DNA from: Pseudodesulfovibrio piezophilus C1TLV30
GTDB taxonomy: Bacteria; Desulfobacterota; Desulfovibrionia; Desulfovibrionales; Desulfovibrionaceae
Direction of reading: 5' to 3'
Length of the DNA: 32,000 nt
NCBI RefSeq assembly: GCF_000341895.1
Contig: NC_020409.1
Location: 2,820,001 to 2,852,000 of the forward strand
In this document: one piece after another, positions 22,098 to 23,982 of the stretch
Numbering within the stretch: the first letter of the stretch is position 1
How the letters are laid out: every line of letters begins with the position of its first letter
The notes under the pieces: model-generated
Database searches by the model: none
What the model was told of the DNA's origin: nothing
Seen by the model: only the letters and a program-made list of their open reading frames with translations
Translations under genes and position numbers: made by a program

Positions 22098-23687
22098 TTA
22101 GTCGTCTTCTTCGACGACAGCCTCGGAAATAGCGCATTCGGTGGTCAGCAGCATGCTGGAAACGCTGGCAGCGTTTTGCAGGGCGATGCGGGTGACCTTC
22201 TTGGGATCAATAACTCCGGCCTCGACCAGATCGACATACTTGCCGGTCCGGGCGTTGAAGCCATTGGTGCCATCAAGACCTTTGACTTTCTCGACGACGA
22301 CTGTGCCTTCCAGGCCGCAGTTGTTGGCGATCTGTTTCAGAGGCTCTTCAATGGCCCGAGCAATAATGGCGATTCCGGCCTGTTCGGTGTCGTTGTCTCC
22401 CTTGAGTTCGCAGAGGCCAGTGCCTGCACGGACCAGCGCTGTGCCACCACCGGGAACAATACCTTCATCGACTGCGGCGCGGGTTGCATTGAGAGCATCT
22501 TCGACGCGGTCCTTGCGCTCTTTCATCTCGATTTCAGTGGGAGCGCCGACCTTGACCACGGCAACGCCACCGACCATTTTGGCCAGGCGTTCCTGCAGTT
22601 TTTCACGGTCGTAGTCGCTGGTGGCGTTTTCGGCCAGCCCCTTGATCTCTTCGCAACGGCGTTCGATGGCGGCCTTCTCGCCTGCTCCGCCCACGATGAG
22701 GGTGTTTTTCTTGCCGATGACCACTTTTTTGGCGGTTCCGAAGTCTTCAGGCTTGATGGATTCCAGGGTGACGGCAGTGTCTTCGGACACGACGCCTGCG
22801 CCGGTCATGATCGCGATATCGCGAACCATGTCTTTGCGACGGTCTCCGAAACCGGGAGCCTTGACAGCGCAGACCTTGAGTGCGCCACGCATGGCATTGA
22901 TGGTCAGACCTGCCAACGCCTCATTTTCAATGGTTTCGGCCACGATCACCAAAGGACGTCCAGCCTTGGCCACTGCTTCCAGAATAGGAACCAGCGGTTT
23001 GATGTTGGAGATTTTTCCCTCGGAAAGCAGAATGAAGGGGTTTTCGTATACTGCTTCCTGCTTGTCGTGATCGGTGACAAAATACGGTGAGAGCCAACCG
23101 TTATCCCACTGGAGACCTTCGACCACATCCAACTCGATGGTCAATCCCTGGGATTCTTCAACTGTGATGACTCCGTTATCGCCGACTTTTTCCACGGCCT
23201 CAGCCAGGATTGCTCCGATGGCATCGTCATTGTTGGCTGAAATTGCGCCGACCTGGGCTATTTCGGAGCTTTTTTTCACGGGCTTGGTCAATTTTTCCAA
23301 TTCCGCGACAACATGCTCGACAGCCATGTCAATACCGCGTTTGATAGACATGGGGTTACGACCGGCGGCCAGCAGTTTGACACCTTCATTGAAGATGGAC
23401 TGGGCCAGAATAGTCGCAGTGGTGGTTCCGTCTCCGGCGATTTCGTTGGTCTTTGATGCGACCTGCTTGACCATCTGGGCGCCCATGTTTTCGAGCTTGT
23501 CTTCCAGGTCAATCTTTTCAGCGACGGTGACGCCGTCCTTGGTTACCTGGGGAGCGCCCCAGGTCTTTTCCAACATGACGTTACGTCCCTTGGGTCCCAA
23601 GGTTACCTTGACGGCATTGGCCAGAGTGTTAACGCCTTTCTGCATGCCTTCACGGGCGACTGCTTTGTAATCGATTGCTTTTGCCAT
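22098..23687 (-). CDS. groEL: group I chaperonin GroEL (atypical: no C-terminal GGM tail)
   Basis: 529 aa with [48 protein letters not shown] and GGG(T)AL. It ends ...[15 protein letters not shown] rather than with Gly-Gly-Met repeats. Confidence 0.93.
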
Positions 23688-23721
23688 TGTCTGTAAGTCC
23701 TATGAAGTCAGGTTGTAAGGA

Positions 23722-23982
23722 TTAAGCGAACACGCCCAGAATGTCATCTTCACGCATGATGATCAGCTCTTCTCCGTCCATGGAGAACTCGCTGCCTGCG
23801 TATTTGGCAAACAGGACGGTATCTCCGGCCTTGACGGTCTGGCACTCGGGGCCGGCTGCCAAGACTTCTCCACCCTGCGGTTTTTCCTTGGCGGAATCCG
23901 GGATGTAGATGCCTCCGGCGGTCTTTTCCTCTTCTTCCTTCCTCTTGACGATGACGCGGTCGTTCAACGGTTTCAAAGCCAT
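23722..23982 (-). CDS. groES: co-chaperonin GroES (atypical: short, roof-hairpin region deleted)
   Basis: 86 aa: [36 protein letters not shown]...G....VK.GD.VLF.KYAG.E....[12 protein letters not shown]. It lies 34 nt upstream of groEL. Confidence 0.9.

What the first reader, a model, noticed from the sequence alone, without database searches (positions are those of the whole stretch)
22098..23982. Atypical GroES/GroEL pair: GroEL lacks the GGM tail and GroES lacks the roof hairpin
**GroEL.** It is clearly group I, with the ATP-site blocks intact. It is only 529 aa and ends [11 protein letters not shown] (acidic) rather than with the flexible Gly-Gly-Met repeats that form the cavity floor in canonical GroEL. 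The apical-domain substrate and GroES contact segment is altered too:
- [13 protein letters not shown] here vs GMQFDRGYLSPYF in E. coli
- EALAGLTIN here vs EALATLVVN in E. coli

**GroES.** It is 86 aa. Between GEV..(A/V)G and VK.GD it has only PECQT, whereas canonical GroES (E. coli, 97 aa) has about 9-10 more residues that form the dome roof beta-hairpin. The mobile loop ([11 protein letters not shown]) is intact.

Both the floor and the roof of the folding chamber are therefore trimmed in a co-encoded pair. This suggests a specialised, co-evolved second chaperonin with changed cavity volume or charge, comparable in concept to phage co-chaperonins that remodel the cage. No CIRCE operator is present upstream.
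Basis: partly seen in the sequence, partly recalled or inferred. Interest (0 to 1): 0.65.

Follow-up and report, generated by a model that had tools for sequence, protein, structure and literature searches.

The report
Accessory chaperonin pair with trimmed cage
This is a real, conserved second GroES/GroEL protein-folding machine of Pseudodesulfovibrio-type sulfate reducers in which both the lid's roof and the chamber's floor tails have been shortened; it is an uncharacterised variant of known things (extra chaperonin copies, roofless co-chaperonins), not a new kind of system.

Summary
groES (23722-23982, minus strand) encodes an 86-aa co-chaperonin that lacks exactly the 9 roof-hairpin residues. 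groEL (22098-23687, minus strand) encodes a 529-aa group I chaperonin ending ...EAVVEEDD. No Gly-Met tail is hidden in any frame, and a strong terminator follows the stop.

Neither feature is an artefact or unique to this contig. More than 45 protein clusters from Pseudodesulfovibrio and Salidesulfovibrio share both features. Related genomes (P. mercurii, P. cashew, P. sediminis, sp. JC047, D. aminophilus) also carry a canonical 95-aa GroES and a ~550-aa GGM-tailed GroEL. The pair is therefore an accessory paralogue.

It descends from one old duplication within Desulfovibrionales. It is under purifying selection (dN/dS 0.1-0.3) and evolves about three times faster than the housekeeping copy. 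The core clade has also lost Arg197 and changed apical helix I (T261G, V263T, V264I). It sits divergently next to an OtsA-like trehalose-6-phosphate synthase gene.

The absence of CIRCE is uninformative, because the canonical copies in this genus lack it too. Non-GGM paralogues and roofless co-chaperonins are each already known. Their combination in one cellular operon appears undescribed. Interest is moderate.

The parts
23722..23982 (-). groES2: an 86-aa co-chaperonin with an intact mobile loop ([11 protein letters not shown]). The roof beta-hairpin is deleted (9 residues) and a conserved Cys47 sits at the junction (GPE-C-QT).
22098..23687 (-). groEL2: a 529-aa group I chaperonin. The ATP site (DGTTT, D398), the inter-ring contacts and most cavity-wall acidic residues are intact. 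The C-terminal tail is reduced to about 4-5 acidic residues (VEEDD) where the canonical protein has about 21 residues with Gly-Met repeats. Substitutions are R197N, F195W, Y199W, D253T, G256N, T261G, V263T and V264I.
22047..22074 (-). Intrinsic terminator-like hairpin (12 bp, 8 GC) flanked by T-runs, starting 23 nt after the groEL2 stop.
24048..24076 (-). Putative promoter: TTGACA (24076-24071), 14 nt, then CTTATCTCT (24056-24048). This equals a 16-nt spacer to TATCTC. The architecture is conserved upstream of variant groES in five other species and upstream of the canonical P. mercurii groES.
   Evidence: Inferred from conservation. The strict sigma-70 scan did not call it.
23990..23995 (-). 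Shine-Dalgarno AAGGAG, 7 nt before the groES2 ATG. It is invariant in the alignment of four species.
24197..25669 (+). Divergently transcribed OtsA-like GT20 glycosyltransferase (490 aa, no phosphatase domain). It is linked to groES2 only in the core 86-aa clade. The association is by conserved position and is an inference.

Best explanation
This is a functional accessory chaperonin operon (groES2-groEL2). It arose by an old duplication of groESL within Desulfovibrionales and is kept alongside the canonical GGM-tailed housekeeping pair. GroEL2 keeps the whole ATP-driven machine: the nucleotide pocket, D398, the inter-ring contacts and most of the cavity wall. GroES2 keeps the GroEL-binding mobile loop. 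The pair should therefore still cycle as a capped group I cage. Three parts are remodelled. (a) The disordered Gly-Met floor tails are replaced by about 4-5 acidic residues per subunit. (b) The GroES roof hairpin is removed, which should leave a wider opening at the dome apex rimmed by seven cysteines. (c) The apical domain is changed by loss of the Arg197 partner of the Arg197-Glu386 inter-subunit salt bridge, by a less hydrophobic helix I (V263T, T261G) and by F195W. From E. coli tail-deletion work, the R197A mutant and the T4 Gp31 precedent, I infer a somewhat larger, more negatively charged and leakier chamber with weaker intra-ring cooperativity and altered client or lid affinity. That would be a chaperonin tuned to a narrower client set or to a particular stress. 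Its fixed position back-to-back with an OtsA-like trehalose-6-phosphate synthase gene in the core clade suggests an osmotic or thermal stress module. Shown here: the anatomy, the paralogy, co-occurrence with a canonical copy in relatives, purifying selection and faster evolution. Inferred: the cavity consequences, the stress or client specialisation and the sigma factor.
For: Family membership and intact catalytic and assembly residues. Roof deletion and tail loss conserved across the clade. Canonical plus variant pairs in the same genome: P. mercurii; P. cashew, P. sediminis, JC047, an uncultured Pseudodesulfovibrio (3.70 Mb) and D. aminophilus, matched by name or contig length. Tail-less clade monophyletic at 84% and sister to canonical Desulfovibrionales at 99%. 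Orthologous chromosomal frame in D. aminophilus (one search compared). dN/dS 0.11-0.33 (GroEL2) and 0.12-0.15 (GroES2); variant 84.5-86.6% identical against canonical 94.5-95.5% for the same species pairs. Literature: at least one Gly-Met paralogue is always retained and is under stronger selection, and atypical-tail paralogues are presumed specialised (PMC11978752; PMC5904260). Roof deletion in T4 gp31 and RB49 CocO is interpreted as enlarging the cage (PMC5649160). Linkage to the OtsA-like gene in window, P. mercurii, P. tunisiensis and S. onnuriiensis.
Against: There are no expression, biochemical or genetic data for this paralogue in the searchable literature. A canonical copy could not be demonstrated in the window's own organism. 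Canonical Pseudodesulfovibrio groESL contigs were found only in sister samples. The promoter looks the same as that of the canonical operon, so differential regulation is unproven. Roofless GroES elsewhere pairs with normal GGM-tailed GroEL, so roof and floor trimming need not be mechanistically coupled. The faster evolution could partly reflect relaxed constraint. dS values are near saturation (about 1), so the dN/dS values are approximate.
Confidence: 0.75

Rival explanations
1. Redundant duplicate drifting under relaxed constraint. On this view the roof and tail were lost because the housekeeping pair covers all essential folding, and the changes carry no adaptive specialisation.
For: The variant evolves about 3x faster than the canonical copy. 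It appears absent from some congeners (P. piezophilus, P. profundus and zrk46 are seen only in the canonical lists). E. coli tolerates or only partly tolerates tail deletions according to the literature cited.
Against: dN/dS is 0.1-0.3 for both genes. The catalytic, inter-ring and mobile-loop residues are all invariant. The clade-specific substitutions are themselves nearly fixed, for example T263 in 49/49, W195 in 48/49 and the GroES Cys in about 38/39. The pair has been retained since before the Maridesulfovibrio/Pseudodesulfovibrio split.
Confidence: 0.15
2. It is the sole housekeeping chaperonin of this lineage, and the short forms are simply the clade's norm.
For: The window itself shows only this pair, and the promoter resembles a housekeeping groESL promoter.
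Against: Every named relative checked has a second, canonical pair. The literature reports that at least one Gly-Met paralogue is always retained.
Confidence: 0.03
3. Horizontally acquired chaperonin operon derived from a phage or mobile element, by analogy with roofless phage co-chaperonins.
For: Roof deletion is typical of phage Gp31/CocO and of virioplankton GroES. One roofless GroES found here lies in a phage-like contig (L093).
Against: GroEL2 branches as sister to canonical Desulfovibrionales GroEL and not with distant taxa. The locus sits in the same chromosomal frame in D. aminophilus and in the window. GC content (52-57%) resembles the flanks. The mobile loop is identical to the host's canonical GroES. 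No mobile-element genes are adjacent.
Confidence: 0.04
4. Sequencing or assembly artefact: a frameshift truncating the tail, or an in-frame assembly deletion in groES.
For: None was found.
Against: The tail and terminator DNA is identical in three assemblies and no GGM is encoded in any frame. The same lengths occur in dozens of isolate genomes.
Confidence: 0.01

Closest known systems
Non-Gly-Met-tailed accessory GroEL paralogues in bacteria with multiple chaperonins (rhizobial 'pattern-less' tails, mycobacterial His-rich GroEL1, Myxococcus GroEL paralogues)
   Same: It is a second groEL beside a retained GGM-tailed copy. It has a divergent C-terminus, evolves faster than the GGM paralogue and is presumed to be specialised.
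   Different: Here the paralogue keeps its own dedicated GroES, and that GroES is itself remodelled (roofless). The tail is almost absent and acidic rather than His-, Gln- or pattern-rich. Arg197 and helix I are changed across the whole clade.
Phage co-chaperonins T4 Gp31 and RB49 CocO
   Same: They have the GroES fold with the roof beta-hairpin deleted, which is interpreted as enlarging or opening the cage. Foldseek matches 1g31.
   Different: Gp31 has only 14% identity to GroES2. It works with the host GroEL and has no cognate GroEL gene. From established knowledge, it also has a longer mobile loop. GroES2 has the host-type loop, about 70% identity to the host GroES1 and its own GroEL2.
[quoted passage not shown]
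   Same: It is the best PDB sequence hit (E 2e-36) and its first domain aligns without a gap, so it also lacks the roof hairpin.
   Different: It is a tandem two-domain eukaryotic organellar protein that acts in hetero-oligomers, so only some dome positions lack a roof. GroES2 is a single-domain protein that is presumably a homo-heptamer, with all seven roofs missing.
Short bacterial GroES families (NCBIfam NF001537, an 86-position equivalog; other roofless metagenomic GroES clusters)
   Same: GroES2 aligns end to end with the 86-position model at 108.1 bits against a cutoff of 109. Seven other 50%-identity clusters have the same 9-residue deletion, and one of them has a Cys at the junction.
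   Different: Those examined pair with ordinary GGM-tailed GroELs that have canonical apical residues (L091, L092). GroES2 falls just below the NF001537 cutoff, so it is not a member of that equivalog.

Membership tests
Group I chaperonin GroEL (TIGR02348 / PF00118) | Profile score above the curated cutoff over the full length | tested here: met
   TIGR02348 scores 770.3 bits against a cutoff of 582.1, covering residues 2-523. PF00118 scores 260.8 bits.
Group I chaperonin GroEL (TIGR02348 / PF00118) | Nucleotide-binding and hydrolysis residues (GDGTTT, D398) | tested here: met
   These residues are invariant in 49/49 core-clade sequences.
Group I chaperonin GroEL (TIGR02348 / PF00118) | Canonical apical client/GroES-binding residues (Y199, Y203, F204, L234, L237, L259, V263, V264) and the R197-E386 salt bridge | tested here: inconclusive
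   Y203, F204, L237, L259 and E386 are kept. Y199 is Y or W, L234 is mostly V, V263 is T, V264 is I, and R197 is N, Q or K. The functional effect was not measured.
Group I chaperonin GroEL (TIGR02348 / PF00118) | Gly-Met-rich C-terminal tail | tested here: not met
   The tail is VEEDD after the position equivalent to E. coli residue 525. The mean tail is 4.2 aa against 20.7 aa in canonical relatives. This feature is typical of housekeeping GroEL but is not required by the family model.
Group I chaperonin GroEL (TIGR02348 / PF00118) | Double-heptamer assembly and ATP-dependent folding activity | not testable with these tools
   The inter-ring contact residues (K105, A109, R/K452, E461, S/T463, V464) are conserved. 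That is consistent with assembly but does not prove it.
Co-chaperonin GroES/Cpn10 (PF00166) | Profile score above cutoff and the GroES beta-barrel fold | tested here: met
   PF00166 scores 102.8 bits (cutoff 21.1) and NF001531 scores 112.4 (cutoff 96). The model matches GroES structures with TM 0.7-0.77.
Co-chaperonin GroES/Cpn10 (PF00166) | Mobile loop with the hydrophobic tripeptide that binds GroEL | tested here: met
   [18 protein letters not shown] is identical to the P. mercurii canonical GroES1 loop.
Co-chaperonin GroES/Cpn10 (PF00166) | Roof beta-hairpin closing the dome | tested here: not met
   There is a 9-residue deletion at E. coli residues 47-55, and the model has a loop there.
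Accessory (non-GGM) chaperonin paralogues of multi-chaperonin bacteria | Co-existence with a GGM-tailed paralogue in the same genome | tested here: met
   This was shown in relatives (P. mercurii and five others). It could not be tested for the window's own genome.
Accessory (non-GGM) chaperonin paralogues of multi-chaperonin bacteria | Weaker sequence conservation than the GGM paralogue while still under purifying selection | tested here: met
   Identity is 84.5-86.6% against 94.5-95.5% for the same species pairs, and dN/dS is 0.11-0.33.
Phage Gp31/CocO-type co-chaperonins | Phage genomic context, acting on the host GroEL without a cognate GroEL gene | tested here: not met
   The context is chromosomal and shared with D. 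aminophilus, and a cognate groEL2 lies 34 nt downstream.
HrcA-CIRCE heat-shock regulon | CIRCE inverted repeat TTAGCACTC-N9-GAGTGCTAA upstream of groES | tested here: not met
   There is no match with up to 3 mismatches in the window or in any Pseudodesulfovibrio variant or canonical locus. Of 97 control sources, 42 do have one.

The most novel reading that the evidence does not exclude
The pair forms a chaperonin cage that is deliberately vented at both ends. At the top is an apical orifice rimmed by seven conserved cysteines, which could act as a redox- or metal-responsive gate in an anaerobe. At the bottom is an acidic, tail-less floor. On this reading the pair is co-deployed with trehalose synthesis as a dedicated stress module, or serves one oversized or unusual client. 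That would be a natural test of how cage volume, charge and closure determine folding.
Probability: 0.12. Interest if true: 0.7.

Novelty: new variant of a known kind. Interest (0 to 1): 0.4.

Why it matters
The roles of the GroEL Gly-Met tails, of cavity volume and charge, and of dome closure are still argued from engineered E. coli mutants. This clade is a natural, selection-tested pair in which tail, roof, the Arg197 cooperativity switch and helix I have all been altered together. A canonical pair in the same cell serves as an internal control, and at least one host (P. mercurii ND132) is a cultivated isolate with a complete genome. The stepwise series of GroES lengths (95, then 90/91, then 86 aa) also gives intermediates for reconstruction. 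If the link to the OtsA-like gene reflects co-regulation, it would connect a protein chaperone with a chemical chaperone in one stress locus. Otherwise it is one more example of chaperonin paralogue diversification.

Tried and rejected
1. The genome-contig scan with GroEL2 was swamped by universal GroEL motifs. It returned only canonical GroELs at 59-66% identity, so it was useless for mapping the variant clade. It did serve later as the CIRCE positive control.

2. I looked for a hidden frameshifted GGM tail and rejected it.

3. CIRCE is absent, but this is a lineage trait and not special to the variant.

4. A sigma-54 reading of the upstream TGGAAAAAT..TTGC was rejected. The GG-GC spacing is one base short in the window, and the GC is not conserved in P. 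mercurii.

5. I tested the 5'UTR for an RNA thermometer or conserved structure. Rfam gave no hit, RNAalifold found no consensus pairs, and single-sequence folds were not better than shuffles for the variant leaders (z from -1.5 to +0.5).

6. I tried to find a canonical groESL in the window's own samples. Only sister samples of the same JGI series turned up.

7. I tested whether roofless GroES generally implies a tail-less GroEL. It does not.

8. Literature searches for any description of this paralogue in Pseudodesulfovibrio or Desulfovibrio found nothing relevant.

9. The first bootstrap tree run timed out and was redone with numpy distances.
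Full report
**1. What is in the sequence**

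On the minus strand, an 86-aa ORF (23722-23982) is followed 34 nt later by a 529-aa ORF (22098-23687).
- The large protein is an unambiguous group I chaperonin. It scores 770 bits on TIGR02348 against a cutoff of 582, and phmmer E-values of about 1e-190 to 1e-205 against solved GroELs over residues 2-522.
- The small protein is a GroES: PF00166 at 103 bits, and NF001531 at 112 bits against a cutoff of 96.

GroEL ends ...[15 protein letters not shown].
- None of the three frames past the stop encodes Gly-Met repeats.
- A 12-bp, 8-GC hairpin with flanking T-runs (22047-22074) follows the stop.
- This tail and terminator DNA is identical in three independent metagenome assemblies.

The GroES alignments to solved structures have one gap of 9 residues exactly where the roof hairpin lies (E. 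coli residues 47-55). The first, roofless domain of Chlamydomonas Cpn20 aligns without any gap. An AlphaFold model (pLDDT 80, and 88 over residues 41-50) has the GroES barrel with a short loop at residues 43-53. It matches GroES, Cpn10, Cpn20 and Gp31 structures.

**2. Is it peculiar to this contig?**

No. The window is a Pseudodesulfovibrio-like metagenome contig (JGI samples 3300009847-9). The closest GroEL clusters (83-92% identity, about 48 of them) are all 527-530 aa and end in xxEED or xxDED. Many are from named Pseudodesulfovibrio isolates.

More distant tail-less forms occur in:
- Salidesulfovibrio (527-531 aa);
- Maridesulfovibrio (528-529 aa);
- D. aminophilus-like organisms (533 aa, tail KPKEEDEKKK).

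Canonical Desulfovibrionales GroELs are 541-550 aa and end in (GGM)n-Y.

About 39 GroES clusters share the 9-residue deletion, and nearly all have Cys at the junction (GPE-C-K/Q-T). Maridesulfovibrio and D. aminophilus have 90- and 91-aa GroES with a 5-residue deletion. Canonical GroES is 95 aa.

**3. Housekeeping or second copy?**

P. mercurii ND132 carries both pairs on one chromosome.
- GroES (95 aa) plus GroEL (550 aa) has GMQFDRGYLSPYF, EALATLVVN and the tail ...GMPGGMGGMGGMGGMGGMY.
- GroES (86 aa) plus GroEL (528 aa) lies 0.45 Mb away.

Matching names and contig lengths between the three homologue searches shows both types in P. cashew, P. sediminis, sp. JC047, an uncultured Pseudodesulfovibrio (3.70 Mb) and D. 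aminophilus. P. piezophilus, P. profundus and sp. zrk46 appear only in the canonical lists. This suggests the variant is accessory within the genus, but the inference is tentative because 90% clustering can hide members.

For the window's own organism, a canonical copy could not be shown. Canonical Pseudodesulfovibrio groESL contigs were recovered only from sister samples of the same JGI series.

**4. Origin and selection**

A neighbour-joining tree (528 columns, 200 bootstraps) gave these results:
- all tail-less GroELs form one clade (84%);
- that clade is sister to the canonical Desulfovibrionales clade (99%), and the two together have 86% support;
- the Pseudodesulfovibrio plus Salidesulfovibrio core has 100% support and long branches.

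The D. aminophilus tail-less operon lies in the same chromosomal frame as the window: FG-GAP, DctPQM, pseudouridine synthase, BON and NlpC/P60 upstream, and CheW-response regulator, NeuB and AMP-binding downstream. The locus is therefore orthologous and vertically inherited.

Within P. mercurii the paralogues are 65% (GroEL) and 70% (GroES) identical. Across the same species pairs, canonical GroEL is 94.5-95.5% identical and the variant is 84.5-86.6% identical. dN/dS is 0.11-0.33 for groEL2 and 0.12-0.15 for groES2, with dS near saturation.

This matches the published generalisation that one Gly-Met paralogue is always retained and is under the stronger selection, while atypical-tail paralogues are thought to be specialised (PMC11978752; PMC5904260).

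**5. What else has changed**

Compared with 49 canonical relatives, the core clade has nearly fixed substitutions concentrated in the apical domain (E. coli numbering):
- F195W;
- R197 to N, Q or K (Arg never retained);
- Y199 as Y or W;
- M230I;
- Q239A;
- D253T;
- G256N;
- T261G;
- V263T;
- V264I;
- K266A.

Unchanged features:
- the ATP site and D398;
- E386;
- Y203, F204, L237 and L259;
- the cavity-wall acids E252, E255, D359, D361 and E363;
- F281 and Y360;
- the inter-ring contacts.

The tail averages 4 residues with net charge -3, against 21 residues with net charge -0.8. The outer tail-less groups (Maridesulfovibrio, D. aminophilus) keep canonical apical residues. The order of events was therefore tail loss plus partial roof trimming first, then complete roof loss plus apical remodelling in the core clade. 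The GroES2 mobile loop is identical to that of GroES1.

**6. Regulation and neighbourhood**

No CIRCE with up to 3 mismatches occurs in the window. The same is true of every Pseudodesulfovibrio locus examined, canonical ones included. The same scan finds CIRCE just upstream of groES in 42 of 97 control sources, some of them other Desulfovibrionales. The absence of CIRCE is a lineage trait.

Variant and canonical operons share TTGACA-N14-(C/T)TTA(T/C/G)xT upstream. In the window these elements are at 24076-24071 and 24056-48. The sigma factor cannot be assigned. No Rfam family, and in particular no RNA thermometer, is detected.

In the core clade only, an OtsA-like GT20 gene lies divergently upstream. 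It scores 536 bits on TIGR02400 against a cutoff of 565 and has no phosphatase domain. A conserved 75-77-aa Cys-rich ORF follows it. This arrangement is seen in the window, P. mercurii, P. tunisiensis and S. onnuriiensis. A 183-aa TPR-like protein and a 434-aa secreted beta-helix protein usually follow the operon.

**7. How general are the two trims?**

Roof-hairpin deletion is documented for T4 Gp31, RB49 CocO and virioplankton GroES clusters (PMC5649160), and for the Cpn20 N-domain (bioRxiv 10.1101/432013). NCBIfam already has an 86-position GroES equivalog that this protein matches end to end, just under its cutoff.

Among the 45 single-domain representatives in the top 150 of a search of 1.84 billion protein representatives, 7 other clusters have the full deletion and 8 have the partial one. 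Those whose context could be read fall into two kinds:
- two are paired with ordinary GGM-tailed GroELs with canonical apical residues (L091, L092);
- one lies in a phage-like contig without a groEL (L093).

Roof and floor trimming are therefore not generally coupled. Their combination, together with the loss of R197 and the helix I changes, is specific to this paralogue clade. I found no paper describing it.

**8. Mechanism**

Shown: this is a conserved, selected, co-transcribed GroES2-GroEL2 pair with intact ATPase, ring-contact and lid-binding elements, kept beside a canonical pair in relatives.

Inferred from established work on E. coli GroEL and T4 Gp31 (my knowledge of that literature):
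- Removing the tails enlarges the chamber slightly, removes the hydrophobic floor that helps capture and retain unfolded clients, and here adds about 21 negative charges per ring.
- Removing seven roof hairpins widens the apical opening.
- Losing Arg197 removes the Arg197-Glu386 inter-subunit salt bridge that stabilises the T state, which predicts lower positive cooperativity.
- V263T and T261G make the helix H/I groove less hydrophobic.

Together these changes point to a chaperonin with a narrower or different client range, or a different operating regime. The OtsA-like neighbour hints at an osmotic or thermal stress role. The main rival is a redundant copy drifting under relaxed constraint. 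The near-fixation of the derived residues and the low dN/dS weaken that rival but do not exclude it.

**9. Verdict**

The CIRCE argument should be dropped. Novelty: a new variant of known kinds, namely an accessory non-GGM GroEL combined with a roofless GroES. Interest is moderate (0.4). It is a good natural system for questions about cage geometry, but not a surprise in kind.

Noticed in passing
window 23842-23844 (GroES2 Cys47): A cysteine sits exactly at the roof-deletion junction (GPE-C-Q/K-T) in about 38 of 39 clusters of the clade. It also occurs in an unrelated roofless GroES (P0416, GPQCK). Other roofless lineages have V or A there. In a heptamer, seven thiols would rim the apical opening, which could make a redox or metal site.
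   Followed up: partly
window 24197-25951 (+): An OtsA-like GT20 enzyme (490 aa, just under the TIGR02400 cutoff, no phosphatase domain) is followed by a conserved 75-77-aa Cys-rich ORF (CxxC...CxC) with no family hit. This two-gene unit lies divergent to groES2 in all four core-clade genomes checked, but not in Maridesulfovibrio or D. aminophilus.
   Followed up: partly
window 19924-21968 (-): A 183-aa weakly TPR-like protein and a 434-aa beta-helix protein with a predicted signal peptide follow the operon's terminator. They are conserved in that position in P. mercurii and P. tunisiensis. Neither has an NCBIfam hit.
   Followed up: partly
window 24011-24026 (-), and the equivalent positions in L002, L087, L088, L090 and L001: Every groES leader examined, variant and canonical, has a GC-rich hairpin about 15-35 nt upstream of the Shine-Dalgarno sequence, and the hairpin sequence differs between species. 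The hairpin does not sequester the SD. Only the canonical P. mercurii leader folds better than shuffles (z = -2.9). It may be an mRNA 5' stabiliser.
   Followed up: partly
L093 4001-4282: A 93-aa roofless GroES lies in a phage-like contig. It follows a class II ribonucleotide reductase carrying a LAGLIDADG insertion and sits among short overlapping ORFs, with no groEL nearby. It is probably a Gp31/CocO-like viral co-chaperonin.
   Followed up: no
P0241, P0242 (698 aa) and P0050 (643 aa): These are over-long 'GroEL' proteins closely related to canonical Pseudodesulfovibrio GroEL. A length of 698 aa is about GroES (95) plus spacer plus GroEL (550). They may be GroES-GroEL read-through fusions or gene-calling artefacts on short ENA contigs.
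   Followed up: no
window 25948-26955 (-) and L087, L088: A PAS-GGDEF diguanylate cyclase gene is a recurrent neighbour of the otsA-like/groESL2 block in the window, P. tunisiensis and S. onnuriiensis.
   Followed up: no
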